The position numbers were made by a program, and so were the translations under genes. From positions 310,001 to 374,000 of the forward strand of contig NW_026931824.1 of assembly GCF_032062105.1 (NCBI RefSeq): a stretch of 64,000 nt of DNA, in the 5' to 3' direction. The notes under the pieces are model-generated. The model was given only the letters and a program-made list of their open reading frames with translations, searched no databases and was not told the DNA's origin. Every line of letters begins with the position of its first letter. Positions within the stretch are counted from its first letter, which is position 1. Positions 13,165 through 60,359 of this stretch are shown here, one piece after another. Source of the DNA: Saccostrea cucullata. Taxonomy: Eukaryota.

Positions 13165-14592
13165 ATGAACGAAAAAGAAAAAAGAATAGTTCAACGTCTT
13201 CATTACAAATTAATTACGAACATACGGACAGAGGAAATTGCGCCACTGTTATACTCAAAAGAAGTTATAAGTGGCAATTTCTTAAGTGATATCCTCCATA
13301 AAAGTACCCCCAACGCCGAGAAAATGTCAGCTCTTTTGTTTGAGGTGTGTGATCGTTGTTCAATGCCGGACTTTGTTGAATGCTTGGACGAAGCAGGATA
13401 TGATTTTTGGGGGACAGAAATAAGGCTGTTGATAGAAAAACCTGATAGCTCTCTTCAGATTCGAAATTATGCCAGACAGTCTACCTCTCAAAATTCCTCT
13501 TTTGTGGATAGTTTTGCAGAAAAAGTAAAGTTTAAGATTCTTAATGCAGAGGCACGAAACTTCAAGTGTGATTTTAAACGCTGGGCCAAGCGGTTACTGT
13601 ATAGTCTGCGTCATGGCCGACTCTCTTTATCCGAGTCTCGTCTGCAAGCCGATTGTTGCTTTATACTGCTCGACTCTCTGGCTGTCATTGAGAGAACTCA
13701 CTCCTCAGACAAGGATAATCTCTGGAAATCACCGGTGTTTCCCGAAATGGAATATCTGATATCTAAAACTTCTAACCCTATTTCAAGTAGAATACGACAT
13801 CATGCTCGATACGGCGTCGCTCTTTTTCTTGGAGGTAAAGATGACGAAGGAGAAGAATATATTGAGGCAGCTCTGAAGGACGCCAAAACATTTCTACAAT
13901 CAGGTCGTGACATCGGAAACTGCATATTTGCACTGGTCAATTTTAAATTAAATCAATTCAGGAAAAGGAATGCCATGGATGGTAAACAAAACATTCTTAA
14001 TCTTATAGAAGATGGAATTGGGTATTTTCAGAACGAAGATGATGACACTAGAAATAATTGGCGAGGGGTGTATCTTGACAAGAAAATATCTTGCCATTTG
14101 GCTCTTGACCCTACAGGACGAGCTATTACTAATGTCCCGATTTCGAACGAAGATCTAAAGGTTGCCAAGGAATGTCTCTGTGAAATGGCCAATCTGAGTA
14201 GGAAAGACAAACGAAGAAAAATTCATTTTTATCGAGAACAAGCATGTTTGTGCGAAAGAGAATCAGAATTTTGGATTGCGAAAGGCTATCTATATCAGGC
14301 TTTGGAATTATGTAAGGAGGGAGGATATGAATCCGAATTGCACATTTTAGAACAAGAATTAGGAGAGCAAAGCTCTAATTTGACAATCAATGACAATGTT
14401 ACACCATGCATGACAGTAGATTTGACGTGGGACGATGGCTCCCAAAGTCCGGAGGAGGATCAGAATGGGGGTTGTTTATCAGAGACTGCTGCTTCACATG
14501 GCATATCAAACGCATGTATGTCAGAAATATCTCATAAATTAAAAATCGAAAACAATTCTTCAACAGAGAGTGATCTAGTAATGGATGGGTAA
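13165..14592 (+). CDS. Intronless protein with N-terminal CARD/death-fold-like domain, TPR-like alpha-helical core and acidic tail (paralog A, 475 aa)
   Basis: Uninterrupted 1.4-kb ORF in AT-rich DNA. Residues ~1-90 follow a CARD-like pattern (KLITNIRTEEIAPLLYSKEVIS...KMSALL...FVECLDEAGYDFWGTEI). The core has TPR-like helices (YGVALFLGGKDDEGEEYIEAALK; AKGYLYQALELCKEGGY). Clear homology to 15904-17400. The ORF call is firm; the domain call is pattern-based. Confidence 0.8.
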   Translation: MNEKEKRIVQRLHYKLITNIRTEEIAPLLYSKEVISGNFLSDILHKSTPNAEKMSALLFEVCDRCSMPDFVECLDEAGYDFWGTEIRLLIEKPDSSLQIRNYARQSTSQNSSFVDSFAEKVKFKILNAEARNFKCDFKRWAKRLLYSLRHGRLSLSESRLQADCCFILLDSLAVIERTHSSDKDNLWKSPVFPEMEYLISKTSNPISSRIRHHARYGVALFLGGKDDEGEEYIEAALKDAKTFLQSGRDIGNCIFALVNFKLNQFRKRNAMDGKQNILNLIEDGIGYFQNEDDDTRNNWRGVYLDKKISCHLALDPTGRAITNVPISNEDLKVAKECLCEMANLSRKDKRRKIHFYREQACLCERESEFWIAKGYLYQALELCKEGGYESELHILEQELGEQSSNLTINDNVTPCMTVDLTWDDGSQSPEEDQNGGCLSETAASHGISNACMSEISHKLKIENNSSTESDLVMDG

Positions 14593-15903
14593 ATAAACAT
14601 ATACTTATATTTGAGTTTATGTTAACTATAGTTCTAACTCATGGGGTATATATGTTGCTCTTTTAAATCAAATAACAGACATATGTCAAAATTTAAATAT
14701 CGAAAACAATACGCTTACATCTTTAAAAGATAGTGATGTTTTATTTGTTAAATGTTTTTAAAAATATTAATTTAATAATTTTTGGTATTATTTAATTAGT
14801 TATTAATCACAAATTAAAATTGGTATCGATAATAATGATTTTTTTTATATTTGTATAACTAAAACAGTTCTTCCAAAAGACACCAAAGTCAATGACCTTG
14901 TGACCTTGACTGTGACCTACAAGCTAAAAATAGCTTTATCGATTTTTTTCAATAACTTTAACCTATCTGTTTTATAAATAAAAAATTCCCATATTAAAAA
15001 ACATGTATTATGGGAAATTTTTATATACATAAAAAGATATGTTAAAAACTTCAAGCGCCTGTGCATCATTTTAAATTTTTAAAGATTAAGTATATAAATG
15101 TATACATTGTTAACGTTTACATTGTTTTTATTAATGTTTAATAATTACATGGTATAAGGGTGTTCTCTTTAACGCATAGTTTTATTATTCTCTTTGTTTA
15201 TATCTTATTTGCATAAATTGTTGAAAAAAAATTATTTTTATGTTAATATTCAAAAGTTGTTTGGTAAGTCTACATGTGTACCTTAAAAGCTTTAGAAGAG
15301 AGTGGCTGGCTGACTGTATGAATACATTTGAAAAAAATGAAAGAGATATAAAAGATTCTCAGATTTGATGCCTTTACCTAATACTAGTATTTCAAAGATA
15401 TCACCATAAGTTTCTTCAACACAAATGGTTCATCGCTATACATATGTAGCTATACAACAATTGAATGAAGAAAAACCGCAAGGCATAGCAGAGTAAGAAC
15501 TCAATATTTAACAGGAAAAAGAACTAGCGAATCCGGCCGACGCGTTGTTATCATAAAAAGGATTCTTACAGTAGTCTACTTATATTTCATTTATAAAAAA
15601 GAGCACGCCTTTATATCACTAACATGCAGTTGCGGAAAATAAACATCACACAAGGAGTTGGTATTTCCTGCGTTCAAGGCCAAATGCAGCTAAATACATG
15701 TATATCTTTCTATTGAACACTTGTATACTTTATGCAAGACAGTGCAAGTTAGTATGCAGACGACTTTCTGAATGGAAATATTTTTGAAAGGGATTATTAA
15801 AAAACATTCCGAACGGTATAAATACCAATGAGCTGTATTGTACTTTATTCGAAAAGTAAACATTATGTGGGACCGTTTTCTGTTATAATTTCGGATGTGA
15901 AAA

Positions 15904-17400
15904 ATGAATGACATAGAAAAAGGAATATTGCGTGGCTTTTATCCTATGTTTATAGCTACTATACGTGCGGAGTTAATTGCGCCATTGTTATACGCCAAGA
16001 AAATAATTAACTGGAAGCTGCTAAACAGAAGTTCCAGTAAGGATTTAACAAATGTCGCAAGAATCACGAGTCTGCTACGCAAGGTGAGACGACGATCTTC
16101 TATGGAGGACTTTTTGGAATGTCTGAACAAAGCAGGGTATGACTTTTGTTGTGAAGAAATAAAACAAAGTCTTCAAGTAAAACAAAATGAAAATAACCAG
16201 CTTTGTACTTTTACCAGACAGCCAGGCACTCAGAGTCTGTCTTTTGTTGATAGTTTTGCAGAGAAAGTAAAGGTAAAAATTCACAATTCTGAGGCACGAA
16301 ATTTCAAGTGTGATTTCTTAAGCTGGACAGAACGGCTTTTGAATCAGCAGGATCTAAGTCAGTGTTCTCTCTCCGAGACGCGTCAAAGAGCCGATTGCTG
16401 TTTTATACTGTTAGACTCTGTTGCAGTTATTGAGAGAACTCATTCAGCGGACATCGAAAATCTCTGGAAATCACCGGTATTTTCCCAAATGGAGAATCTG
16501 ATATCTAAAACCTCTAACCCTATATCAAGTAGAATACGACATCATGCTCGATACGGTGTCGCCCTTTTCCTGGGGGGTAAAGACGAAGAGGGAGAGGAAT
16601 ATATAGAGGCAGCTCTGAAGGACGCCAAAACATTCCTGCATTCAGGTCGTGATATCGGAAACTGCATGTTTGCACTGGTTAATTACAAACTTAAAAGATT
16701 CGCTAAAACAAAATCCGTTAAGGATAAAGAAGACATTTTGAAACTCACAGAAGAGGGGCTTGGTTATTTTCAGAATGAAGACGAGGGCATACGAAACACA
16801 TGGCGAAGAGTTTACCTTGACAAGAAAATATCATGTCATTTAGCCCTTGAACCTTCAGGACGAGTAATAGAGAATGTTGACATTTCAAGTGAGGACATGA
16901 AGGCAGCAAAAGAATGCCTCTGTGAAATGGATAAAGCAGTAGAAGTGATGGACAAAAGAAGGAAAGTCCATTTTTATCGAGCAAAAGCTCATCTTCACAA
17001 CCTGGAATCAAATTTTCGAATTGCAAAAGGTTATTTAGAAGAGGCTTTGGAATTATGCGTAGAGGGAGGGTACGAATCTGAGCTTTGTGCTATAAAAGAG
17101 GAACTAGGTGAACAAGCAACTCCGGTTACCCAGAGTGACACTGCCATGGATTTAGATTTGACGGAATATGCAGAGGGACATGCTGTAAAAGACGTCAATT
17201 TAATGAGTGAAATTCCTAGTTCTCTTCCTAAGACTAGTTCATCTATATCAACTCTCGTTAATAAATGTATCTCAGATTTATCAGGGAAACTAAACTTCAG
17301 TAATACTTTGATGCCCTCCTCAGTCAAGAGAAAGTTGGACACTGATGAACTTTATGCCAGATATAAGAAAGTAATTCACAGGAGCTCGTGCGATACGTGA
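15904..17400 (+). CDS. Intronless CARD/death-fold-like plus TPR-like protein (paralog B, 498 aa)
   Basis: Uninterrupted 1.5-kb ORF, collinear with paralog A, with long near-identical blocks (e.g. LISKTSNPISSRIRHHARYGVALFLGGKD). Ser-rich tail ending in a basic motif (KRKLD...RYKK). Confidence 0.8.
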   Translation: MNDIEKGILRGFYPMFIATIRAELIAPLLYAKKIINWKLLNRSSSKDLTNVARITSLLRKVRRRSSMEDFLECLNKAGYDFCCEEIKQSLQVKQNENNQLCTFTRQPGTQSLSFVDSFAEKVKVKIHNSEARNFKCDFLSWTERLLNQQDLSQCSLSETRQRADCCFILLDSVAVIERTHSADIENLWKSPVFSQMENLISKTSNPISSRIRHHARYGVALFLGGKDEEGEEYIEAALKDAKTFLHSGRDIGNCMFALVNYKLKRFAKTKSVKDKEDILKLTEEGLGYFQNEDEGIRNTWRRVYLDKKISCHLALEPSGRVIENVDISSEDMKAAKECLCEMDKAVEVMDKRRKVHFYRAKAHLHNLESNFRIAKGYLEEALELCVEGGYESELCAIKEELGEQATPVTQSDTAMDLDLTEYAEGHAVKDVNLMSEIPSSLPKTSSSISTLVNKCISDLSGKLNFSNTLMPSSVKRKLDTDELYARYKKVIHRSSCDT

Positions 17401-18090
17401 TACACAAGAAAAAAAAATTAACCTTCGAAAAAAATTAATATGAACAGAAAACTCGAAGTATGTGTTTTTCATTTGTGTCTGCAACCTCTTAAAATTAAAT
17501 AGTTCTTAATGCGGCTGTTAAATATCAGCGCATACATTATTTTCTGCATTCTACATCAATGAGAGTTCCTTTACATTAAAGAAGGTGTGGTTTTAGCTAT
17601 ATTGTGAGCTAAAAATGTAATGTCATAAAAAGGTTTTGAAACTGGCTTAAATATTAGTTAAGTGTATGACTGTGATAAATCGGGAAAAAATATGGCACAA
17701 AGGATTACTATTCTGAAAATATGACGTCATTAATGTGATGCATTTCTGTATTTTTAACAGAAAAAGCCTCAAATTAGCCAATTTCAAGGGGAATTTTCCT
17801 TTAGAAAATCGTGTCCACAGCTGTCGCCCACTTTAATTTTTTGACATATTGAGCAAAAAACAATTTTAAAAAATCACATCTCCAAATCTTTCTGGGCTAT
17901 GCCCGTAGACAATATTTTCTGAAAGAAAATTCCATTTAAAATTTCAGTATTTATTGCGAAATTAATTGTTCGTTTTCTACCGGTAATAGTCACTGTAACG
18001 CAAAGATTGTTTTTATCTATTTGTCGACACTACGGTCGTATTCAATAGATAAGACAGAAAATATTCCATGCGAAGAGCCGACAGAACACC

Positions 18091-21000
18091 ATGGCATTGC
18101 AGAGAAAAATCATTATACCGACATTGACAGGTTAAGTAATTGAAGAAATTATGACTTTTATCCAAAAGTAAGATTTCATACTGATACGAAGGTCAATAAT
18201 TCTTGCTTTTACATTGTCATTATTCAGTAGACACATTAGGTATGATATAACTTTGTCTATTTATTAATGATTCATGAATAACTATTTCGAAGACTTTATG
18301 ATCCTTCACATGTTCATGTATATTGTGTCTCAGTTGATGAAAAGTATCTTTCTAAATTTAATGATTTAACCATATATGAGATAATACATGTAACTTAACT
18401 TACTTTGAAGAATTCTGGATCTTGTATATTTTGTATAGGTTAAGATATGATACATATATTCGTATATTTCTTAATTCAATATTTTGACCTAATGATAATA
18501 AAAAAGTAATTTTGCTCTTTGTATTACTATTATTATTCACCTGGCTTGGTATAGTTTTCTAAAGTTTATATTACACTTTTGGCACCAAGGTAACATATTC
18601 TGAAATTTATTTTCACCTGTAAACCTTAACTGAGTGTAATATTACTAATATTTTCCAAGTTTATTTCATTTTCCAGTTCTTAGGAGAAAAAATGCTAAGA
18701 ATTATCTACATTTCTAAACTTGTGACATGATATTAAGACTATTCAAAAGAAAAAAATTGTTTGTATCATCTGTCCTTAAATTCATTTCTTAGTTCTGTCG
18801 TGCTTGATTGGATTTTTCGTTTCACCGACTGATGGCGCCCTACCTCCCAGCTGCACGCCTCTCGAAGAACACCCTTTGGACACAGCTGACCCAGGGATCA
18901 TATTTGGAAGAACCGCGGAGGTAGGGAACAAAGCGTCTCCGGTTAGGACCGGTAATATGCGTCAACATGGACCGCTTCCAACTCACCATTTTGCAACCAA
19001 TGAAATAAAGAATAACAAACCAATTCCAATGAGGCTGTTCCCTTATGAAGGCAGGTGAATTATTCTGAAAAATTGGGTGTAGCTACATATCAAATACGAG
19101 CTAAATTTCACAAATGAAATTTTTTTTCTCGAGTGATGAAGATGGGAAGGAACTTTTACCAATCTTTCAGCAATAATGAATTCCGCTGGTATTGTGTACG
19201 ACGCATATACAATGGACAGGTGGACAAATCCGGATCGAACGGATTTGATGATGCAGCAATCAGCATGGAAGTCTGGTGAGCCTTGGAACAAATTGACAGA
19301 CATGGGAACCAACATGCGACAAGTGGTAAGCGGTCCAGACGGGAATCCCGGAGGTGAATTCTCAGGTAAATATGACTAAAACACAGTATTGGTCGCATAT
19401 GCTGTTTCTACTAGATATTATCATCAAGTTTTCATCCATGTTCAGGTGAGTCCGGTGTCAGAGTAGGAATTTCCGGAAGTTCCGATCCGGTTTTGACAAG
19501 TTTTGGAGATCTGTACGCCAACTTTGAATATCATGGCAACGGAGGGAAAATGGAGGTATCGTATACCGTACTATTTTCTTTCGAATACAAGTAACATACG
19601 ATGTACATTGCAAAGACAATACATATTAAGGTGAAGATGTTCCACGCTTCAGGTGCCCTTGGTGCGTGGATCGGCCTTGCTGACCCATCTTTTCACTAAC
19701 GCCAATCCCGTTATTAAGCCTTTCTGTTTGTCCAACTTTGCAGGACACCATGTAAATTTCAACTGCCCTTTAGAAAGAACAGGTATGTAATGTCTGTATA
19801 TTTTTGCGACATACCTCTGTATAGAGACATAATTTATCTGATTATGTCCTAATTTTCATGAAGTATTGGATGCTGGAAGTGGGCATGCTAGCGCCACCTG
19901 CTCTGGTGGAACATTGCACCTAAGACTTCAAAACACCAAAAGAATCACAGATGTGACTAAGATACAGTTTGCTGCCAGACCGAAGGCTCGCTGGACTGCC
20001 GGGGATCACCCTATGACTAACTGTGATGCCAGAAAGTGTAGACTTTCTAGTGATGGAAAGATCCTGCAAATAGACGTGCCCAATGCTCATGGTTAGATTT
20101 CTTTTGACTATCATCTATGTCTTCCAACGTTTACAATCTATTGGAATTCCCATGGGTTCCATTTGCGCTCCGTTTTTAGCAGACCTATTTTTGTATTCAT
20201 ATGAAGCAGAATTTATGCAAAATCTTATGCGTGAAAAGAAGAAAACACTTGCCGTGGCCTTCAAATCGACTTTCAGCTATATCGATGACGTATTGTCAAT
20301 TAACAATGGTGATTTCCATTCCTACGTCGATACGATACACCCAAGAGAGCTTGAGATTAAAGACACGACAGAGTCTGACACATCTGTTTCATACTTGGAT
20401 ATTTTACTTTAAAAAGACGTTAATGGTAACTTAACAACCAAGCTGTATGATAAACGTGACGACTTTAACTTTTCTATCGTCAACTTCCCTTACTTATGCA
20501 GCAACATTCCTTCATCACCTGCATACAGAGTGTATACATCTCAGTTGATTCGATACGCAAGAGCATGCTCTACGTATAAACAATTTCTAAAACGAGGTAA
20601 ATTATTGACAAGCAAGTTGACGAAACAAGAATATCAACAGCCTCGTTTAAAGTCATCATTTCGTAAGTTCTATGGTCGATACAATGACCTTGTCAGCAAA
20701 TACAATTTATCATTGAGTCAAATGCTGACTGACGTTTTTCATACCAATTGTTAGTCCATTATTGATACACTGAATTGACGACGGATTTTCCCGTTATTTC
20801 CTGACAATGGTGACAAGGAGCACACGACGGGTGTGACCGGTAAGCAGGGGATGCTCACTCCTCCATGACACCTGATCCCACCTCTGATGTTTCGGAGGTC
20901 CGTGTTTGCTCTGCTCTTATTTTGTATTGTTTTATGGACTTTGAGATTGAATACTGTTCGTTGTCTCCATATCCTTCCTTATGCAAAACCATTAACAATG

Positions 21001-24000
21001 GTCCTTAGATTATTTAGGGATTTTGAAGTTAAGGTGCTCCATTGATCAATGTTGAAATGCGTTCATTCTTTGAAAATCTTGGGTATTTTCCGAAGAGAAA
21101 TTATGTACATAACTCTAATGAGCAAGAGTGCTTCTTCCGAACTTGTGAAATCCATGGAACACTTCATCGTGTCTTCTGGAGATGAGGGGGCTCTTTGTTG
21201 CTCAAGAGAAAATGTGTTATTTTTTAATAAAGATCTTCATATAGCTCTGCTCCCAGAATTTTTTAGCAGACAAAATAAATACATAACTATAATGCATGGC
21301 TTCCAAAATTGTGAAATTTTAGATCTTGTGGGTGAGAATTTTACTATTAGGACACGGAATTTTATGGGCATATTCTTGATTATATTAATTTTATCAAATT
21401 TGATCCAAACCCTCAAAACTAAATTTCTTGCCGTTTGCCTGTGTATGCCAAACTTGGTTGGCATTGGATTATAAATCATTGTATGAGTTCAAGCGGGTTC
21501 TGAGAGTGTATCGTATTCTTTATGCTGCTAGAATCTGCATGCTTGATAGAAACATTGCAAAATTTATATTTGCTATGTCAATATTTTGAGCAGGTGTTAT
21601 GGCGTTTGCTTTTAACTACGTTGGTCACTACGTCACTCCTTGGGATTGGATAAATCACCCGGAAGAAGTCACGTGTCATAGTCGACGCAGCGAAAAAAGA
21701 GCTGGGGGTCATATATCGTTACATGCATCGTGTGACTCCAACAGGAATCTGCAGCTTGATGTTGACCTTGGTCACTATAACATCCCAGGTGTTGACAAGG
21801 TTGTTTAAGCATGTACATTTTGATTACATTACTTGTATCCATTGACATGGCAGTAATTCAATGTAATGTTTTTCAGTTTAATATGTCAAAACAAAAATAA
21901 GGCTCAATATAAATATCAAATCTCCATTCATATTCGATTTTAAACTTTGAAAATGGCGATATTGCATGACCTTTAATAAGTAAAATGCTATCACTTATTT
22001 ATACCTTAATGGTCACTAACAGATTCAGTATGCTGTTGAGCCGGAGAATGCCTGGGGGAACCCCCCACCTATGCGCACCTGTAACCCCACCCTCTGTACC
22101 CACACCGGAAACACCGTCACTGTCAAACTGCGAGCACCTGCTCAGAACATTAAGTAAGGAGAAAGCAAAATATAGGCAAAAGTTTACATTCTAATCTTCT
22201 TATGCGACCGGAAACTCTCATTTAGCTGTAAGAAGTATATCTTCATGCTTTATCTATCGAAAAAAGGAAGTCACATGCAAACAGCATAATATGAAAATGT
22301 GTTATACTTTCTAAAGAGAAAACTTTTACATGTACTGTTTTTTTGTTTGCGACTTGAAATAATTGCTATGTGGGAGACTTCTAAGTTGAGGAAGTGTCTG
22401 TTTCTTACTTGAATATTGTACAATAAAAACAGTTTTTAATCATTTGATGATGATCTATTATCGAAATTCTAATGTAAGGAAAAAATTTCAATTTGAAACT
22501 GTGATTAAAAATTTAAAGTAATTAGTCTTCAATTGCTAGCAATGTTCCAATTTGCTTATAGACTTGCAGTCAACGTCATAGGTTACGTAACCCTTCCACA
22601 CTCTTACTGGATAGAACGCCCATATAGAATGGTCTGTGGGGGACCTGACTTAGGATCAACGGCTTCAGGTAATAAAGCTATGAAAACCGGAAACATATAC
22701 ATGTGTAAACAAGAGGTTGAGTTAATAAATGTGAAGACAGCAATGTAATGTAAGGGTTCTGTCTGAAAGAAATATGACTTTATTAAGAGTAGTACTCAAA
22801 CCATGTATGCAACTTGGTGTTTACCTTACATCACAATAGGAATTTTTTTATATCCTGCATTCAGGTGGAAGTCACGTGACTCCAGCCCCGACCCTACACT
22901 CCATCACCACACCCCCTCAACATCAGACACACTCACCTCACACGATTCGGACGACTGCCTCTTCCCGACCTCTAACCCAGGGGTCGAAGTTTATCATGGA
23001 ACTGAATGAACCAGGTGATGAATTACCAAACCAAACAAGAAAATTCTTACTGTATTTCCAAAGTCCAGTCACCCCGCACATCAACGAGGTCGACAATACA
23101 ATAATTTTTACTCCTTCAAACGGTGGTCATTACTCAGGATTCATGCAGCTAGCTTATTTAGGAGCGGGTCCAAGGGGAGATCACTCAAATGATACAGTTC
23201 TAGACAGGTATCTTGGGGTGTATTCCTATAAGCCTAAGGCGTCTTACTGCGTCAAGAATGACCGAGCATATGCCAGTTTTGATTGGAATCCCAACAACCA
23301 GTTTTCCTATCAGTCAGCAGGAACGCTTCTCATGATCACGATGCCACACCATGTATGTTAAAGCATTTTACGTACATATACATGTACGCTAGTATTTCAA
23401 AGGAAGTTTTGATAATGAAGAGACCATATTGACAAAGAAAACCTTCACTTCAAAATAAGTGACATTTAAATTATGATATGAAGGAGAATGTCTAAAAAAT
23501 ATTATCTTAATTTTTCATTGCAGGCATACATCTTAAAAGATCATTTTGCAGCAAATTTGCGGTCTACAGTCTATACGTTCAAGGGTTTTGAGGGAGCGAG
23601 CTGGTTATTAGACATGGAGGCACCACGTGCCGCTATGGAACCCGATCCTGCTGCTGTACAGGCTATAAAGGCCAACAACCAACATCTTCAGGTAGTTCTA
23701 GCCCTGGATTCCACAAACTAAGGTCAATGAAATAGTACCAATTATCTACCTTTTCGCCAATGCTACTAAGGTATTTGAAGGTCGTATTTTCTACCATCTA
23801 CTAGTAACATAAACATCCTTCATTGTTTTTAGAGATGGATTCATGCCTTTTTAGTCTATCTCATTTATCCTTTGTATGAAATTCTGCAAGCTATTGAGAC
23901 GATGGGTGCATCCTTTGTATACAATCCCTTTGATCCTTTACAGAACACACTGCAGGCTATAGAGATGGATTCATACTTTTGTAATCAATATCTTTGATTC

Positions 24001-37320: not shown

Positions 37321-37772
37321 GTTCCTGAGTATTAAATAAACTAATTAAGTACATAGTTATGATGAGCAAGAATGCCTCTACCAAAATTGTGAAATTCATG
37401 GCCCCAGGGTCAGGGGTTCTGGTGTTAGGGCGGGGTTCTATTGATTATGTAATGAAAATGCATTTATTCTTTGAAAATCTTCTTCTCTGCTTCTGAGTAT
37501 TAAATAAACTAACAAAGCACATAGTTATGATGAGCAAGAGTGCCTCTACCAAAATTGTGAATTTTATGGCCCCAGGGTCAGAGGTTCTGGTGTTAAGGCG
37601 GTGCTCTATTGATTATATAGTGAAAATGCATTTATTCTTTGAAAATCTTCTTCTCTGCTTCTTCTGTATTAGATAAACCAACGAAGTAAAAAGTTATCAT
37701 GAGCAAGAGTGCCTCTTTCAAAATTTTGAATTTTATGGCCCCAGGGTCAGGGTTAGAGTGGGGCTCTATTGA

Positions 37773-37811
<39 letters not shown>

Positions 37812-40800
37812 TATCTGCTCCTAGGTATTAAATAAACTAACTAAGTACATAGCTAGGATGAGCAAGAATGCTTTTACCAAAATTGTGAATTTTATGGCCC
37901 AATGGTCAGGGGTTATGGTGTTACGGAGTGGTTCTATAATGATTATATAGTGAAAATACATTTCATCTATGAAAATCTTTTTCTCTACTCCTGGGTAATA
38001 AACAGATGTACTACCTATATAGTTATGATGTGCAAGGGCTCTTCTTCCAGAATTGTAAATTTCAAGGCCCCTGGGTCAGGGATACCTAAGAGGGGGGGCT
38101 CTACTTATATACTAAAAATGAATTGTTTGAAATCTGCTCCTTATTATTAATCAAACATTATTGAAAAGCAAGTGTGCCTTTTCAAAAATTATGCAATGTG
38201 TATACCTAGGGCCAGGAGTTCATGTGTGATAAGGGGACTTATGATTATTGCTGAATATTACTGATTAGTTGAAATGCATATTTTGTTCCCCTGCTCTGCT
38301 TATGTGTATTAAGTAAGCAAACTAAACAATTGCTAAGAGTATAGTTATGATTAGCAATGGTGCCTCTTTTAGAATTGTGAATGCCATAGCATCTAGCTTG
38401 AAACATTAACCAAATTCAATCATTTGAAAGTTGTTGCATGATGCTCAGGTGACCTATAAGGCCCGTGGGCCTCTTGTTATTGTTAGAGGGTAAAAATTTT
38501 GAATCTCAGAAACACAACATTATTTTTGTGTATTCCTTGTGACAGACCTTTCTTTGGGTACCACCAAATTTGACCTTTTGACCTTGACCTTGGAGTTTGA
38601 CCCACTTTTACACAAAAATTCCAAACATTTACTTTGGCCATAACTTTTGAATGGTAGGTACTAGGACTTTCATATTTCACACATTTTCTTTAGAGCAAGA
38701 CCTTTCATTGAATACCAACAACTTTGACCTTTTGACCTTGACCTTGGAGATTTATGAACTTATGAAAAGTCTTTAACCTTGACCAAAACTTTTGAATGGT
38801 AAGGGCAAGGGCTGATATGACTTGAAACCTTTTCTATTTAAGGTGTACAGCATGAGACGGGAGCGTCGAGGGTTAGTTTTTATCATCAACAATGAACAAT
38901 TCCTCCCAGGGTCTGGCATGTCACACAGAACTGGAACAAAATTTGACAGAGACAATCTAAATAAATTATTTGAAGGTCTCCACTTTGAAGTAATTATAAA
39001 AAACAATTTGACCAAAGAGGTGAGTCAATACTCAATAGTTATAACATTTATATTGGTATCCTTTTCAAAGAGAGTTGATTCAAAGCTCTCCTGACTGACT
39101 CTTTTCCTAAACTCACTGAGTTAGAGGGAAATTTGTATATATGAAAAAAAGTCTTCAAAAAATCTTTTGCAGTTGGAAAAATTTCTCATGACTAAAGAAA
39201 GATAGTAAAAACTTAAATAGTCATGTACATACATGTATATAAATGCAAGCATGCCTGCTGCATTTATCAAATATGGAATCAAAAGTGTGTTCAATAGGCC
39301 AATGTTTATTTTTACTTTTTTTTTCTTACAGAGGTTTCTTCTTCATTCTTATCAGAGAAACTGATTCAAAAAGATACAACACCAAACCAAAAACCTCCAT
39401 TTTGCATCTCTTGAATTAGATCTTTATTTGTCTTTTTTAGGAAATAATCAAAGAAACTAAACATGTAAGTCGGAGTGATAAAATAAAAGACAGTGACTGT
39501 TTTATCTTTATTATTCTGACTCATGGTGATGACAAAGGTGTGTGTGGTATTGATGGATCTTCTGTCCCTGTGACAGAACTTACAGAAATGTTTGAACCTA
39601 ACAACTGTTCAGAGCTGAATGAGAAGCCAAAGATATTCTTAATTCAGGCTTGTCGTGGGGGTGAGTTGTTTTCAGGTGTATAATTCCTGGGTGTCCTCTT
39701 ACTATATGTGTGTTACTGGAGAATGTGTGCATATTCCTGTCATGCGCCTAACTGCTATGTTTTATTTACCTAGATAAGAGAGAGACTGTAAATCCATCCA
39801 GTGGTTCTGGACAAGTGGGGTCAGTGGGGGATGGAGGAGGGACACAGGACAGTGCTGATGCCGTAGACTCAAAACAATTTGCAGAACCCAATATTTCTGC
39901 CACTGCAACTGTTCATTCCAAGTCTGATTTCCTAATTGCTTACTCCACTCCAGAAGGTATACTAGTAATTCACTATTATTCAGGATTTGTTTATTTTTAT
40001 TTTCATTTTTCAGAGACCAGAAGAGCTTATGCGATATGAAATAATACGTCGTCCGTTCGTCCGTCTAAGGATAAAGTCTGTCTGTCTGTCAAGCCAAATT
40101 AAACAATCTTTCAAAATGACTCCTAAAACAGTTTTGGTCTGATTTCAATATAACTTGGCACACAAGTAGACTACACTAAGATACATAATTCTGTGTATCG
40201 GTTTTTAAATTTATGTCAACGGTGTTGCCGTTGTTCTAAAAATAGAAATTTCTGTGAAATTCTTTCAAAATGCTACTTCTCCTACAGTTTTGGTCTGATT
40301 TTAATATAACTTGGCACATAAGTAGACTACACTAAGATACATAATTCTGTGTATCGGTTTTTGATTTCGATGAACGGTGTTGCCGTGGTTACTAAAAATA
40401 GAAATTTCTGTGAAATTCTTTCAAAATACTCCTCCTCCTACATTTTTGGTCTGATTTCAATATCATTTAATTTCTATAAAATACTTGATTCTGATTGGAT
40501 AAAGAATTCTTTTGATAACTGCATCAATAAAATCTAGAGTTCGGTTGCACTAAGAGCCGGAACTATTTGACAGTCGGTACATGTGTATTCCCCGCTTCCA
40601 GGTTACTTTTTGAAGGAATAATTAAATACCTTTGCTTTAATAAATATTTTCCTGAAGTTTGGTAACCTGTCCGTTAGCTTCCTGAACTTTCTACTTTCGT
40701 TTCAAATTATCCCCCTTTGCTAAACAAATTAAAATCGTCTGCATGACGAGAAAGAAGGGAAGAAATCGTTTAATCGACATACTTTTCTTAAATGTTTGAC

Positions 40801-43800
40801 TTTGAGATATCTGGTATGAAACAATAGAACTCTGAAAAAATGTTTTATTATGCTACCAAAGCGGGGAAAAAAAATCTGTTAAATCGTGTAGTATCAAAAC
40901 GACACTGCATGAATTGAGGATGGAATTCTAAAATCTTGAACTATCGGCAGCAGACTCTTTCAGGTATTACAGCATTGACAGGTTATGATACGTATTTATA
41001 TATTCGGTTTGAAATTCAAATGAAAAGATGCGCAAATGAAATCCAAAATTTCTGTGACGTAGACCGGCCTGTTAGGATATTTGAGTAGCTTCCCTTTACA
41101 TTTACGAACTTAGATAAAATTTGGGGAAAATATAAGGGGATAACACAGCAGGTATTTTTTTGTGTTAAAGAACTGTAAATTATTTTGGAGACTGTTTGTA
41201 ATCACACGACAATATTTGATAACGTTTTTCGTTAGCATGGTTAGAGCCATTTTGAATTTTTAGCCACGTTAACGTTATGGTGATGTATTCGTGCGCACTG
41301 TTTTTGATACATAAATTTAATAGAAAATTGAAAGAAACTTTCATTTTAATAATTTAAAATCATAATTAAATGATAAGAAATGAATGTCAATAATTTTTTG
41401 TTGAAATGTATCAAAGAAAAAGGCAAGCAAAACTTTTTCATCAATGCGCTACGCGCATTGATGAAGTTTTCCGTCCAAATTTTTCTTTGATACATCGATC
41501 AAAGAAAAAATTATAACATTCATTTCTTAAATAACTTAGCACACAAGTAGACTACACTAAGATACATAATTCTGTGTAATGATTTTTGATTTTGATGAAC
41601 GGTGTCGCCGTTGTTGCTAAAAATAGAAATTTCTGTGAAATTCTTTCAAAATGCTACTCCTCCTACAGTTTTGGTCTGAAAAAATATAACTTGGCACACA
41701 AGTAATTTACACTAAGATACATAATTCTGTATATCAGTTTTTGATTTCGATGAATGGTGTTGCCGTGGTTACTAAAAATAGAAATTTCTGTGAAATTCTT
41801 TCAAAATGCTACTCCTCCTACAGTTTTGGTCTGATTTCAATATAACTTGGCACACAAGTAGACTACACTAAGATACATAATTCTGTATATCGGTTTTTGA
41901 TTTCGATACAACGTTGTTGCCATGGTAACTAAAAATAGAAATTTCTGTTAAAAACTCTCAAAATGCTACTCCTCCTGCAGTTTAAGATTTGATTATAATA
42001 TAATGTGGCATGCAAGTAGACTATATGTTAAAATGTAAAGAGACTTAATCAAGGATCATTATTCTTTTTATTGCTGTGGTAAAGTTTCAATTCCCAACTG
42101 CTTAAGAACTTTTCTCTTCCTCTGCTATATTAAGTACAAACCAGTAGAGCTTCAGTCTCGACAGAGACTTCTGGTTTTTATTTTCATTTTTAAGGAATAT
42201 TGGGTTTTGTATAATGAAATAATACACATAAAGTTTAGTTTAAGGATAAAGTTTCTATAATTCAAGCCAAATTCCAAAGTCAAGGTCAAAAGATTAAAAA
42301 ATGTTGGAACCCAAAATATTAACAAGTAATACCTGTGAAAATGAAAGCTAGAACCAATCATTTAAATTTTTGTCAAAGGTTAATGTGTCTAAAAAGTAGA
42401 TCAAACTTAAAGATCAAGGTAAAAGGGTTAAAATTGCAGTCATCAAAGGAAAGATTTTGCTACCAGGAATATGCTTTTGACTTAAAAGCCTTAGCAACAA
42501 ATTTTCAAAAGGTATTGGCAATACCTTTTGAAAATTTGTTAAAAAGGTAAAGGTATTTTATAAGTATTTCAAACTTTAAGGTCAACGTCAAAGGGTCAAA
42601 ATTGTTGGTACCTAAGGGTAGGTCTCATTCAAGGAGTGAGCTTACATGTATTTAGTAAATTTAAAACCTTAGCTCTAAGCATTCAAAACTCAAGGACATG
42701 ATTAAAGTTTTTAAAAGAAGGGTCAACCTCTATGGTCGAGGCCTAGGAAACTTCTTTTCACAAGAATTACACGTGTGAAGTATGGAAGTCCTTGCACTTA
42801 GTGTTCAAAAGTTATGATCAAGATTAAAGTTTGGTAAAAGTTTTTCAGAAGTGAGTCAAACTCCAAGGTCAAAAGATCAAATGTGTTGGTACCCAAAGAA
42901 AGGTCTTGTCACAAGAATTAAACACATGAAACATGAAAGCTGTGTCTCCAACCAATCAAAAGTTATTTGCAAGGGTCAAGTTCTTCTGGACAAACAAACA
43001 ATCAGACAGAGAGGGCAAAAACGTGTACAATACATGTATATCAAAATCATTGATTACTGGGGCATAAAAAGCACAGACCTGCCTACCCTTCCGCTTTTGG
43101 CGCAATTCTTCCGCTTTTTACCACAAAATTACGCTATTACACCACTTAAATTAATTTTACGCTTTTGATATTTGTCTATAAAATCCATTATGAACGTCTA
43201 AATTTAGAGTCAAAGTACGACCCGCTGAAATGAAATGAGAAGTTCTAATAGAGTAATTAATAGAGGACCAGTTCGAAAACGTACGTAATATACCTAGTAG
43301 TTATATGTATACCGGTATGGCGAAGATTCGGAAGTAAACAAGAAGGCACTATACTTACGTTTACTATTAAATGATATTGCAATAAGTACAATGCTATGCT
43401 CAATTTAGTTTATTAAAACATTGCTTAGAACAAGATAGAGAAATGTGAGTGTTAAAAAGATAAAAAAAAAAAAACAGTGCTTAGTATCATGTACGATTTG
43501 TGTAAGCATGCGAACGCAAGCCTTCAATTAAGTGATTTGATACAAATTGACCAAATGCTTCATCAAGGTTGTACGGTTGGTTTAAGTTTAATATAGGATA
43601 CTGGTATTTTACAACACTTTTTGCCAATAGATGAATTGAAAAAGAAAAGTATATGCCAGCTTTGTTAAGATATATACAATTTTGGTTGTTTTGAAAGAAA
43701 ATAAAGTATATAGCGGGTTATTATAGTGGGGTGCTTACTTTGGCGTTTTGATTGTAGCCCACTAAAATTCTACTCGCGAAAATCGTCAGTACTCTTCTTA

Positions 43801-44655
43801 GTGTTCAAATCCTAAAAGCTGAAACACTGTGGCCGCTAAACATGATTGATTATGCTTTAACCTCTGAAATTCCACCAAACATTTACTGAAATTACACCCT
43901 TGAAAAGAAAAGGGTAGGCAGGTCTGAAAGCATAAAAATCCAAACAACAACTGTTCAGATTTAAAATTCAAAAGTATTGACCAAGGACTAAGTTGACATG
44001 TCAAGACATATGAAGTTTGAAAACCCTTGCAACAACCATTCAAAAGTTAAGGCCAATGTTAGTGTTTGGTAAAATTTGGTTAAAGTCATAATGGCTCATT
44101 GCATTGCCTCTTCCTTGTTGTAACTTGAATTTCTACAAATGTTTGTAATTGTAGAAATGAATGTAGCTTACTCATAACATGCTTCCAGAAAGTTTTCATC
44201 TGAGTAATTATCTACTTTTTTGAGCAGGTTCCCTATCATGGAGAAAGACAAATTCTGGTTCTTGGTTTATGCAGGCAGTTGTATGGATCTTAAAATATGA
44301 AGCTCATCTCAAAGACCTTGTTGAAATGCTGGGAAAGGCAAGCATAGCTTTAATAAGCATTGTTCAGCCCAATTACATATAAAATCATTAGTTATTGATT
44401 TAAGGATTGTGAACAAAAGTGATCAGATTACATTAGCTTATACTGAAATTATAAGTTAGAATAATATCTTCCATTGCATCATTTTTATGCATTCTGTAAT
44501 TGTAGGTAAACTACCTGGTCAGTAAAGGCAAGGCTTCACATGGAGAACATCACTATGTAACAGTCTCCAACTACCACTCCTCACTCAGGAAAAAATTATA
44601 CTTCTTCCCAGGAATTTATGGAGATAAAAGAGTGCATCCCAGCTGTATAAATTAG
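32422..44655 (+). CDS. CARD-prodomain initiator caspase (caspase-2/9-like)
   Basis: Exons 32422-32568, 35220-35400, 36285-36388, 38843-39019, 39441-39660, 39774-39956, 44228-44337, 44506-44655. CARD: AIRRNYSYFKNNIADPLDVVEYL...KMLDILLRRGPR. p20: RGLVFIINNEQF, HRTGT, ILTHG, KPKIFLIQACRG. Linker TQDSADAVD. p10: SDFLIAYSTPEG, SWR, GSWFMQA, LRKKLYFFPG. Confidence 0.93.
32626..34978. mobile_element. Nested TAGCTGCAGAACTGTAG-TIR elements in caspase intron 1
   Basis: Outer TIRs at ~32626 and ~34978; inner pair at ~32760 and ~34723 (TAGCTGCAGATCTGTAGCGTTATGGTTTTATATA and its reverse complement). A related end occurs near 810-825. Confidence 0.65.
32880..34287. mobile_element. Mutator-like non-autonomous element
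   Basis: TIRs GGGTGTTGCTAAAACGCGGAACGGAAA / TTTCCGTTCCGCGTTTTAGCAACACCC; 9-bp TSD TTTGGGGAG (32871-32879, 34288-34296). Confidence 0.8.
36900..38478 (+). repeat. HINE-like element carrying a ~160-170-bp satellite array
   Basis: 5' CTCAGGTGACC plus a GTCC/GTC microsatellite; about 6 tandem units containing GAAAATCTTCTTCTC...CCAAAATTGTGAAATTCATGGCCCCAGGGTCAGGGG; 3' stem-loop AGGCCCGTGGGCCT-CTTGTT. A related opposite-strand copy lies at ~35720-36220. Confidence 0.75.
40005..42178 (+). repeat. HINE-like element with a 155-bp tandem array, interrupted by an ~1.07-kb insertion
   Basis: Unit AAAATGCTACTCCTCCTACAGTTTTGGTCTGATTTCAATATAACTTGGCACACAAGTAGACTACACTAAG..., period 155 (41641 vs 41796). The array is broken at ~40463-41531. 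Confidence 0.75.
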
Positions 44656-47600
44656 TTCCTGATGCAATGTGTTCCTCTAAAGTCTAGAAATACACTCAAT
44701 ATTAAGGATTAGTGAATTTAACTACAGTGTATGAAGACAAATTCAAATCGAATTATTCTCCTACCAATTCCATGCCTTTTTCTGCTGCTCAGATTCCTTA
44801 TAAATACATACACACTGTTTTAAAATTTCACCTGTTTTTAAAAAACATTTTGTATTTCACATATCACATGAAAATTTGTACTTTTATGAGATTTTATTTA
44901 TGTAGATGCATTGTGGTATAAATATCTATATGTTAAAATGTAATGATTTTCCTTTTAATGCAATTGTAGCAACTACAAAGAGCTTTAGGCAGTTAAAAAA
45001 AGATTTACTGTAGAAGCACAAATTTTCGTGGGGATAAAATTTCATTGATTTGCCATTAAAAAAAGTTTCGTGGGCATTTAATTTCATTGTTTTGAAAGTT
45101 ACTCTATTCAATTTATAGTCATATAAAATTTTGTGTGGGATTTAATTTTGTTCATAATTGTAAACAACGAAATAAACGAAATTTAATCCCCCATGAATAT
45201 TTGTGCTTTACGATAATCGGTACTTTTGGTCAAATAAACCTTTATTGTAGGTGATGGCCGAAAATCCTAGTTGCCTACTCTTTCTGATACCAGTATGTTC
45301 AACAGGACTAATCAGTGCTATATTTCAAAGTATTTGCATATATAATTATTATTTGTTACATTTTTCACTTTTTTAAAAATAAATCTTTTTGTTAGTTTTC
45401 ATGTTTTACATGTACTGAATGTATATAGTGTAAACACAGTAAAACTGGGTTAAAGTAAAGCATTGTGAATCTGTGTATTTGGGGACTTTGTAATTTGTTA
45501 TGGCTAATTAATAAATTTGTTAAAATTACACTGTAACAAAGTGCAATATAAATGATTCTCAGTTATGACTACTAATTGAATATGTTCATGGGGGTATCAA
45601 ATACAAAAAAAAATATCTTGGAGAACTCTAAATTTCATATGAATTTAATTTCAACAAGCAAATTCAAAGAATTGTGGTCCCCCACTCTCTGTGTCTTTCT
45701 GGTTGGGATGTCATTTTTTATGACATATTGAGTCAAATCTTGTCAAAGGTAATGCACATGTCAGATATGAAAGCCCTTTCTCTTCTCAATCAAAAGTTAT
45801 AAGGAAGTGAACAGAACCTGATGACCCCGTATGACAAAATAGATTTTATATATTGGTAGTTTCTTAAAAAAGAGTCTTGCCACAAGTATTACATATGCAA
45901 AGTATGAAAGCCCTTGCTCAAACCGTTCAAAAGTTATGGCCAAGGTTAAAGTTTTTAAAACGTAGGTCAAACTCCAAGGTCAAGGTCAAAGGCTCAACGT
46001 TCTTGGAATCCAATGAGAGGTCTCCTCACAATGATTACATATGTGAAGAATGAAAGTCCTAGCCCTTACCATTCAAAAGTTATGGCCAAGGTTGACGTTT
46101 TTTCATAAGTATGTAAATCTCCAAGGTCAAAAGGTCAAAGAATACATGTGAAATTTGAAAGCCCTAGTATCTACCGTTCAAAAGTTATGGCCAAAGTAAA
46201 AGTTTAGAATTTTTGTGTAAAGTGGGTCAAACTCCAAGGTCAAGATCAAAAGGTCAAATTTGGTTGTACCCAAAGAAAGGTCTTGTCACTAGGAATATAC
46301 ATGTGAAATATGAAAGTCATAGCTCCACTAAATCAAAAGTTATGAGCAAGGTTAAAGTTTTTGTGACGGACAGACTGACTGACTGACGAATGAGATTTAA
46401 TGAAATTAATGTCCCCTCGCTTTCGCGAAAGGGGGGGGGGCAAAAATAATGAAATGAACGATTTGGAATAATTTTTTCCTGCTGAAAGTGAGGGATGTAT
46501 ATTTCGGTGTTTCTTTTCTTCAGTCCATCCATCTGTCTGTATTTCTGTCTGTCACACTTTCGTTTCCATATGATATCTACAGAAGCCCTTGAGCTTTTGC
46601 AACAACATTTTACACAACTCTCTTTGGCTGGAGGAAAACCCCAGGCCTATTTATTTCAGAGAATATGTACCCCCTCCCCCCTACCCTCCGCATGAGGAAA
46701 AAAAACAAGCTCAGAAAAGCTCGGTATTACGTATTACGCTTTAACGGGAAAGTAGTCCCGAAGAGTTGACATTGTATGGAGTTTGACTAAAATGAGCATA
46801 TGGTCATGATAGGTATTTCCAATTTTCCTACAGGAACTTTATTGTTCCCAAAAGAATTTTCTGTTCAAAGGTGATTACCTCGCCTGACAGACGAGATTTA
46901 CCTGTAACAAGGGTAGTTATGAACTCTGTGAGTCTACCACTTGGTATACATGGTTTTTATGTGTAATGAGAGTTTGGCGGGCGCCAACATGCCACTTTTG
47001 AAGTGGCAGAATTATCAGGCACAGTGTTGTAACATTTTATGGCGATCTAATCCCTGGAATGCAAAACTTTGGCGAATAAACACACAATTTTATGGAATTA
47101 CAAAAATCGCTTTTAATGTAAAACTTGCAAGATGTAAACCGAAATTTCACAGGATTGATAAAAGTTATTTTGTTCAAATGAATCTAATATCTTGAAAGCT
47201 TTTCATTGAATTTGCCCCCCCCCCTCCCCCGGCTGAAAGTATTAATCTAGGTCTGTCTGTGCGTCCATATGTCGATCTGTAACACTTTCGTTTCCATGCG
47301 ATATCTCGAGAAGCATTTGACTTTTGCAATGGCGCGGATCCAGAAATTTTTACCAAAGGGGGGTTCATCCTCGTCAAAAAGAAAATCCCAACTCGGAAAT
47401 TTCTGAACAAGCATAAAAAACTAATCTCATTTCCCAAACGTGAAAACCCTATTCCGAGGGGAGGGGGGAGTCATACTAATGACTTAATTTTCATACCAAT
47501 ATGACAAAGATCAAAGTCTTGGAGAAGGGGTATCCGTTTTCTATATAGGGGATCCAAGATCACTTTTACTTTAAGACATTTATATACATGTAATAACTCT

Positions 47601-51120: not shown

Positions 51121-60359
<9,239 letters not shown>

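What the first reader, a model, noticed from the sequence alone, without database searches (positions are those of the whole stretch)
13165..44655. Candidate immune/cell-death module: 2x CARD-TPR, secreted GH81 beta-glucanase, CARD caspase (then Chk2), all co-oriented
Seen: three CARD-like genes within ~31 kb, flanking a beta-1,3-glucanase, all on the + strand, followed by Chk2. Known: beta-1,3-glucan is a microbial pattern; the soybean beta-glucan elicitor-binding protein is a GH81 member; initiator caspases are activated through CARD-CARD adaptors (RAIDD/caspase-2, Apaf-1/caspase-9). Inference: the CARD-TPR proteins may be dedicated activators of the neighbouring caspase, possibly linked to glucan processing. 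Adjacency in animal genomes is weak evidence.
Basis: inference. Interest (0 to 1): 0.75.

Follow-up and report, generated by a model that had tools for sequence, protein, structure and literature searches.

The report
Oyster CARD-TPR genes beside a caspase
Two oyster genes from an uncharacterised bivalve family join a cell-death recruitment domain to a ligand-binding groove and sit near an initiator caspase gene, so they are candidate triggers of cell death in animals that lack the usual trigger, while the glucanase between them looks like an ordinary digestive enzyme.

Summary
This is oyster DNA with, on the + strand, two intronless paralogues (A, B), a GH81 glucanase, an intact CARD caspase (orthologue of Pacific-oyster Cg2B/Cg2C) and Chk2.

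A and B have no Pfam hit. They belong to an unnamed family (182 clusters at 50% identity; all 5 named of 10 distant members looked up are bivalve). The fold is a true CARD plus a 13-helix TPR-type solenoid with no NTPase. 13 of 15 conserved charged positions lie on groove-lining helices.

Accession order puts the A/B orthologue close to the caspase in 3 of 4 other oysters. That is indirect and covers one family only. Molluscs are reported to lack APAF-1 and PIDD, so the family is a real candidate for an NTPase-free caspase activator. Whether it binds this caspase is open. Its CARD drifts fast (37-52% identity) while the caspase CARD is conserved (60-95%).

The glucan link is not supported: molluscan GH81 occurs in 0-1 copies and is expressed mainly in the hepatopancreas. 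Co-orientation is within chance.

Verdict: an interesting new protein family with a plausible two-part link, not a four-gene immune module.

The parts
13165..14592 (+). ORF A, 475 aa, intronless: CARD (about 1-92), linker, TPR-type solenoid (about 112-400), acidic tail; lacks the KRK motif of its orthologues
   Evidence: weak RNA depth in a related oyster, 0-3.5x
15904..17400 (+). ORF B, 498 aa, intronless paralogue of A: CARD 1-98, flexible linker 100-109, 13-helix solenoid 114-404, tail with a conserved short helix-like motif and a KRK...KK NLS-like motif
   Evidence: (pLDDT 93.8); RNA depth 6.5-19x in 3 of 3 raw-read runs of a related oyster
18793..27463 (+). GH81 endo-beta-1,3-glucanase gene, about 16 exons (inner boundaries approximate); hydrophobic N-terminal exon 18793-19050 with a GC donor; start ATG not located
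20074..20751 (+). Broken reverse-transcriptase fragment (repeat) in a GH81 intron
   Evidence: Pfam RVT_1 E 0.0034, below cut-off; very high repeat-type read depth
32422..44655 (+). CARD caspase, 423 aa, orthologue of Pacific-oyster Cg2B/Cg2C. Exons 32422-32568, 35220-35400, 36285-36388, 38843-39019, 39441-39660, 39774-39956, 44228-44337 (GC donor), 44506-44655
51121..60356 (+). Chk2 kinase gene (approximate span; exons seen near 51121, 53437, 58540, 58762, 60135)

Best explanation
A and B are tandem duplicates of one member of an uncharacterised, bivalve-expanded family of intracellular CARD-TPR proteins.

Shown: the architecture is CARD, flexible linker, TPR-type superhelix, acidic tail, with no NTPase. 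The solenoid is under purifying selection, and its conserved charged residues sit on the groove-lining helices.

Inferred: the groove binds a small polar ligand, most likely an acidic or phosphorylated peptide or a protein terminus. Binding clusters or releases the CARD, which recruits a CARD partner. The family would thus work as one-piece sensor-adaptors for death-fold signalling, like a STAND receptor without the ATPase switch.

The oyster orthologue is an old neighbour of the Cg2B/C caspase, which makes that caspase the first candidate partner (about 0.3), but not an established or exclusive one. GH81 is a digestive laminarinase and a bystander. Chk2 is probably a bystander too.
For: CARD: the family profile hits Apaf-1, caspase-9 and RIG-I CARDs at E about 1e-7; the model of B matches CED-4 at Z 13.8 (rmsd 2.3, 99 aligned) and caspase-9 CARD at Z 13.7 (rmsd 2.2, 98 aligned).

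Solenoid: pTM 0.91 alone. The best matches are mostly peptide-bound TPR receptors: APPBP2 Z 19.6 (rmsd 3.6, 270 aligned), APC/C chain O 18.1, phage Rap 17.9, LGN 17.0, PlcR 16.7.

Conservation: 105 of 150 listed representatives have CARD+TPR, and 97 of 108 with a near-complete solenoid carry a CARD (profiles built from 96 rows, mostly these same proteins). 13 of 15 positions that are at least 70% basic or acidic lie on A-type helices, e.g. K123, D164, R216, K307, R352, E393 (register from weak Pfam TPR hits). dN/dS between A and B is about 0.19 for the solenoid.

Neighbourhood: C. angulata XP_052713369 vs XP_052713370; C. gigas XP_011414271 vs 267/268; O. edulis XP_056005191 vs 199. Chromosome lengths agree in 3 of 3 species where both are given.

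Context: molluscs lack APAF-1 and PIDD (PMC11463336 passages). GH81 is listed with hepatopancreas expression.
Against: No ligand is identified, and a shared TPR fold shows no function; identities to all structural matches are at most 15% for the solenoid. The A/B CARD is only 37-52% identical to oyster orthologues, against 60-95% for the caspase CARD, which is not what a tightly dedicated pair would suggest. Synteny rests on accession order: C. virginica is about 2,100 numbers apart (same chromosome length), and gene order is often kept within one family regardless of function (general knowledge). No immune-challenge or tissue data were obtained. A is barely transcribed in the runs laid.
Confidence: 0.5

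Rival explanations
1. Dedicated two-gene module: the CARD-TPR protein is the specific activator of the neighbouring Cg2B/C-type caspase, replacing APAF-1 or PIDD-RAIDD, and the linkage is kept by selection.
For: Neighbourhood by accession order in 3 of 4 other oysters. APAF-1 and PIDD are reported absent, with CRADD proposed as the only CARD activator. The oyster members form one clade (100/100). The caspase is tandem-duplicated in C. gigas and the CARD-TPR gene is tandem-duplicated here.
Against: The CARD-TPR CARD drifts fast while the caspase CARD is conserved. The family is dispersed in Mya. Linkage outside Ostreidae could not be tested.
Confidence: 0.22
2. Nuclear, DNA-damage arm: the CARD-TPR protein (NLS-like tail) reads phosphorylated substrates, possibly of Chk2, through its basic groove and activates the caspase-2-type neighbour, as a functional stand-in for the PIDDosome.
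For: A KRK motif is present in 9 of 12 oyster-clade tails against 0.2 expected from shuffles, and is bipartite-like in 8 of 12 (the sequences are relatives, so not independent). The groove has conserved basic residues. Chk2 starts about 6.5 kb after the caspase. PIDD is reported absent. The role of mammalian caspase-2 in DNA-damage death is in the passages.
Against: A lacks the motif, and outside oysters it is at chance level (2 of 87 vs 1.5 expected). Chk2 synteny was not tested. There are no localisation data.
Confidence: 0.1
3. Inhibitor or decoy: the CARD sequesters the caspase or another CARD protein rather than activating it, as the CARD-only genes beside vertebrate caspase-1 do (recalled).
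For: A CARD without a catalytic or NTPase domain lies next to a CARD caspase.
Against: Such decoys are near-copies of the caspase CARD (recalled). Here the family CARD profile scores the caspase CARD at only 16 bits, the caspase CARD is split by an intron while A/B are intronless, and a 290-aa conserved solenoid is attached.
Confidence: 0.08
4. Full immune module as first proposed: GH81 processes or senses beta-glucan and signals through CARD-TPR to the caspase.
For: GH81 lies between them in this genome, and on a chromosome of the same length as the caspases in M. gigas.
Against: GH81 has 0-1 copies, with hepatopancreas and male-gonad expression. Its catalytic-site motifs are intact, so it looks like an enzyme rather than a dead receptor. 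It is in a different compartment from A/B. Mya GH81 lies on a chromosome of different length from both named Mya CARD-TPR members. No accession fits between CARD-TPR and caspase in C. angulata (weak).
Confidence: 0.04
5. Pure happenstance: all neighbours are functionally unrelated, and the CARD-TPR proteins signal to some other pathway (for example RIG-I/MAVS-type or CRADD CARDs) or are scaffolds with a degenerate CARD.
For: The family profile matches RIG-I CARDs as well as it matches Apaf-1 and caspase-9. Microsynteny within one family is common. Co-orientation is within chance.
Against: A CARD gene beside a CARD caspase is uncommon by chance (rough, post hoc estimate of a few to ten percent, from recalled gene counts). 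The CARD is retained in 97 of 108 near-complete members. This reading overlaps with the best explanation on what the family is.
Confidence: 0.35

Closest known systems
APAF-1 / CED-4 and CARD-bearing STAND/NLR receptors
   Same: N-terminal CARD of the same structural class (Z 13.8 to CED-4) and a C-terminal repeat solenoid that could sense a ligand.
   Different: No NB-ARC or NACHT domain; only a roughly 15-residue linker separates CARD and solenoid.
RAIDD/CRADD and PIDD (PIDDosome)
   Same: CARD adaptor logic for a caspase-2-type protease.
   Different: No death domain, LRR or ZU5 region; a 290-aa TPR-type domain instead.
Peptide-binding TPR receptors (APPBP2; RRNPP family Rap, PlcR, NprR; LGN)
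   Same: Same superhelical fold, Z 15.7-19.6; an N-terminal output domain on a TPR sensor is the PlcR/Rap layout (recalled).
   Different: At most 15% identity and no sequence-profile match to them; the output domain is a CARD.
Pacific-oyster caspases Cg2B/Cg2C (PMC7836458)
   Same: The window caspase is their orthologue: XP_011414267/268 in supplement 1, 64-78% identity per domain, QACRG motif.
   Different: One copy in the window against a tandem pair in C. gigas; the passages read do not mention the neighbouring CARD-TPR gene.
Molluscan GH81 endo-1,3(4)-beta-glucanase
   Same: Both Pfam domains and catalytic-site motifs; homologues across bivalves, gastropods, a brachiopod and an annelid.
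   Different: Nothing notable, apart from a GC-AG first intron that the database model P0320 misses.

Membership tests
CARD (death fold) | Six-helix death-fold bundle matching solved CARDs | tested here: met
   Model of B residues 1-98; Z 13.8 to CED-4, 13.7 to caspase-9 CARD; profile E about 1e-7 to Apaf-1, caspase-9, RIG-I
CARD (death fold) | Pfam CARD score above cut-off in A or B themselves | tested here: not met
   0 of 2; CARD_2 matches in 3 of 14 close relatives at E up to 5, best 4e-5; CARD or CARD_2 at E<=0.01 in 13 of 77 distant ones scanned, 2 of them lacking the solenoid
TPR-type solenoid | Stacked helical hairpins forming a superhelix | tested here: met
   13 helices, pTM 0.91; Z 19.6 APPBP2 and many other TPR structures; consensus TPR design E 6.9e-5 by profile
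STAND/NLR receptors (APAF-1, NOD) | NB-ARC or NACHT P-loop NTPase between CARD and repeats | tested here: not met
   All-helical model with a short linker; no NTPase Pfam hit in A, B or 77 relatives
RAIDD/CRADD | CARD plus C-terminal death domain | tested here: not met
   The C-terminal part is a 290-aa solenoid
CARD-only decoys of a neighbouring caspase | Recent duplicate of the neighbouring caspase CARD, without other domains | tested here: not met
   Family CARD profile vs the caspase CARD gives 16 bits; intron structure differs
ALPK1-N / IFIT nucleotide- or RNA-binding solenoids | Specific structural kinship and equivalent ligand residues | tested here: inconclusive
   ALPK1-N Z 13.3, rank 30 among generic TPRs; IFIT only weak; residue equivalence not obtainable
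Caspase activator | Physical CARD-CARD binding to, and activation of, the caspase | not testable with these tools
   Needs bench work
CARD initiator caspase (Cg2B/C type) | CARD prodomain, p20 with His-Gly and QACRG, p10 | tested here: met
GH81 | PF03639 + PF17652 and catalytic-site motifs | tested here: met
   NDHHFH and ESSSE motifs align with a solved bacterial GH81, E 3.5e-20; that these motifs carry the catalytic acids is recalled
GH81 | Signal peptide (secreted) | tested here: inconclusive
   Hydropathy 2.0-2.6 at the exon start, hydrophobic starts in 3 of 3 homologues printed; start ATG not found
Beta-glucan receptor (soybean elicitor-binding GH81 type) | Signalling on glucan binding | not testable with these tools
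   The published tissue pattern points to digestion

The most novel reading that the evidence does not exclude
Bivalves, which are reported to lack APAF-1 and PIDD, use an expanded family of NTPase-free CARD-TPR receptors as direct, ligand-gated activators of their CARD caspases. The oyster member has stayed next to its cognate caspase, Cg2B/C, and may act in the nucleus downstream of the adjacent Chk2.
Probability: 0.22. Interest if true: 0.82.

Novelty: new variant of a known kind. Interest (0 to 1): 0.55.

Why it matters
How mollusc CARD caspases are switched on is an open question. APAF-1 and PIDD were not found, and CRADD was proposed as the only CARD activator (PMC11463336 passages). A large CARD family that Pfam mostly misses widens the candidate list, and the locus supplies a concrete sensor-caspase pair with named pocket residues to mutate. 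If confirmed, it would be a receptor class that activates caspases without an NLR-type ATPase, relevant to oyster disease resistance.

Tried and rejected
Complex prediction of A's CARD (1-94) with the caspase CARD (1-104) gave 'no answer' (score 0.00 in 2 of 2 runs, alignments not used). It is no evidence either way.

No whole genome was held, so synteny could not be read from DNA. A metagenome scan found 597 pattern matches and 0 confirmed loci. Prokaryote and viral contig scans could not start from the deep alignment, so prokaryotic relatives were not tested that way. Two GH81 homologue searches timed out; a third worked but gave no accession numbers for oyster GH81, so GH81's position in other oysters is unresolved.

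Foldseek gave no match at E<=0.001 in the PDB or among viral models. Atlas searches named no specific family beyond generic TPR. ALPK1-like nucleotide-sugar sensing was considered and left as a lead only. Local origin of the A/B CARD from the neighbouring caspase was rejected.

The RNA lay cannot show co-expression: the reads come from a relative about 90% alike, tissue is unknown, 3 of 4 runs belong to one study, the caspase was outside the stretch, and repeats dominate depth.

Literature: 'CARD-TPR' 0 papers (one search listed only generic bivalve papers); gene and accession identifiers 0 papers; broader searches listed nothing describing the family, judged from listings and abstract starts only. 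Supplements of PMC8917759 had no hit, with 5 of 16 files not searched. Subscription papers and bioRxiv supplements were not visible and may describe the family. Earlier-findings look-ups returned nothing.
Full report
1. What is in the sequence. The window is 34% GC animal DNA; its proteins are closest to oyster records of the Saccostrea type. On the + strand lie ORF A (13165-14592, 475 aa) and ORF B (15904-17400, 498 aa), both intronless and 58% identical. Next come a GH81 gene (about 18793-27463), a caspase of eight exons (32422-44655) that splices to a protein identical to database entry P0121, and Chk2 (kinase exon best matching human CHK2, E 5.5e-18). Co-orientation is unremarkable: counting A/B as one unit, four units share a strand 1 time in 8.

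2. The CARD-TPR proteins. Neither A nor B has a Pfam hit. The first search found 13 relatives; 4 of the 10 clusters looked up carried names, all 'uncharacterized' oyster proteins, and a fifth had only an automatic TPR label. A profile search found 182 clusters at 50% identity with E<=0.001, of which 150 were listed. Of 10 distant ones looked up, 5 carried names, all bivalve: Pinctada, Mizuhopecten, Mya twice, Dreissena. The range beyond bivalves is not known.

The N-terminal domain is a CARD. A 96-row profile matches Apaf-1, caspase-9 and RIG-I CARDs at E about 1e-7, and the AlphaFold model of B (pLDDT 93.8) aligns to CED-4 (Z 13.8) and caspase-9 (Z 13.7) CARDs. After a low-confidence linker (100-109) comes a 13-helix solenoid (pTM 0.91 alone). 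Its best matches are mostly peptide-bound TPR receptors: APPBP2 Z 19.6, an APC/C subunit 18.1, phage Rap 17.9, LGN 17.0, PlcR 16.7, all at 15% identity or less. There is no NTPase. 105 of the 150 representatives have CARD+TPR, and 97 of 108 near-complete solenoids carry a CARD (the profiles came from 96 rows that are mostly these proteins).

Of 15 positions that are at least 70% basic or acidic, 13 lie on A-type helices, with the register fixed by weak Pfam TPR hits. A helices line the TPR groove (established knowledge), so I infer a conserved polar pocket; I could not inspect coordinates. dN/dS between A and B is about 0.19 for the solenoid; the CARD value is similar but its synonymous sites are near saturation. 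In a tree of the first 36 of the 96 rows, A and B are sisters (98/92) inside an oyster clade (100/100), so they are a lineage-specific tandem duplication. B and most orthologues end with a KRK NLS-like motif (9 of 12 tails; A lacks it; 2 of 87 in other representatives).

3. The caspase. It is catalytically intact and orthologous to Cg2B/Cg2C. Supplement 1 of PMC7836458 gives XP_011414267 and XP_011414268 for these (rows seen), and main-text passages class them as caspase-2-type and closely located on LG6. Passages of PMC11463336 report APAF-1 and PIDD absent from molluscs and propose CRADD as the activator. I read passages of both papers, not the whole texts.

4. Is the neighbourhood conserved? 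Only an indirect test was possible, using accession order and chromosome length. C. angulata: XP_052713369 and XP_052713370, consecutive, same length. C. gigas: XP_011414271 against 267/268. O. edulis: XP_056005191 against 199, same length. C. virginica: same length but about 2,100 numbers apart. So 3 of 4 species are near and the fourth is inconclusive. The proxy is supported by the consecutive numbers of the known tandem pair Cg2B/C, but numbering is not strictly positional (a C. angulata caspase fragment on the same chromosome is 647 numbers away). Conservation within one family is also expected for many unrelated neighbours.

Against a dedicated pair: the A/B CARD is 37-52% identical to oyster orthologues while the caspase CARD is 60-95%, and two Mya members lie on different chromosomes. 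The A/B CARD did not arise from this caspase (16 bits, different intron structure).

5. GH81 and Chk2. GH81 is an ordinary enzyme with homologues across molluscs, a brachiopod and an annelid and intact active-site motifs. A table row in PMC7560691 (passage only, column heads not seen) lists 0-1 copies in seven species, with hepatopancreas and male-gonad expression. The M. gigas gene is on a chromosome of the same length as the caspases. The Mya gene is on a chromosome of different length from both named Mya CARD-TPR members, and the scallop genes are on different scaffolds of a fragmented assembly. I treat GH81 as a digestive bystander. Chk2 linkage was not tested.

6. Expression. Reads of a related oyster (mostly under 95% alike) laid on 8900-25800 gave 6.5-19x over two bins inside B in 3 of 3 raw runs, 0-3.5x over A, 1-4x over GH81 exon-rich bins, and 0-1.9x over three intergenic bins. 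Contigs of a fourth run cover parts of both A and B. B is transcribed; A and GH81 are weak in these samples. Nothing follows about co-expression.

7. Mechanism and verdict. Most likely these are one-piece sensor-adaptors: a ligand in the TPR groove clusters the CARD, which recruits a CARD partner. The architecture and conservation are shown; the ligand, the clustering and the partner are inferred. The neighbouring caspase is the first candidate partner at about 0.3, and whether they bind is open. I found no description of the family in the searches named under Tried and rejected. The four-gene glucan module is unlikely (about 0.04). Novelty: new variant of a known kind. Interest 0.55.

Noticed in passing
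window 23831-24371: GH81 intron with at least six degenerate 64-72 bp copies of the downstream splice acceptor plus exon start; decayed duplicates of an exon boundary.
   Followed up: partly
window 19050-19051 and 44337-44338: Two GC-AG introns. The caspase one is confirmed by identity to P0121. The GH81 one is inferred from homologues; database model P0320 misses it and so lacks the hydrophobic N-terminus.
   Followed up: partly
window about 17250-17300 (ORF B tail) and the equivalent in A: A short motif (C-I-S-x-I/L-S-x-K-L-N-I type) is conserved in the otherwise divergent acidic tail of oyster members, with a similar stretch in the scallop relative; a possible intramolecular ligand for the TPR groove or a docking helix.
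   Followed up: no
window 13705-13884: A and B are 87-89% identical in DNA here against about 53-78% elsewhere: strong constraint or a gene-conversion tract.
   Followed up: partly
window 9150-9413: Last coding exon of an unidentified + strand gene, no Pfam hit, transcribed in all four runs.
   Followed up: no
P0105, P0116: 660-aa Magallana 'caspase' models are fusions of two tandem caspase genes, probably annotation artefacts.
   Followed up: partly
window 25807-26474, 28658-31181, 37204-38128, 40107-42023: A near-perfect 335-bp duplication, 21-bp satellite arrays in inverted orientation, and 168-bp and 155-bp satellites in introns and intergenic DNA.
   Followed up: no
window 11710-12270, 38527-38813, 42544-42988, 45853-46365: Four copies of one interspersed repeat family, highly represented in RNA reads where laid.
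   Followed up: no
P0247, P0283: One family member carries a C-terminal zinc knuckle, and another has about 240 extra N-terminal residues before the CARD.
   Followed up: no
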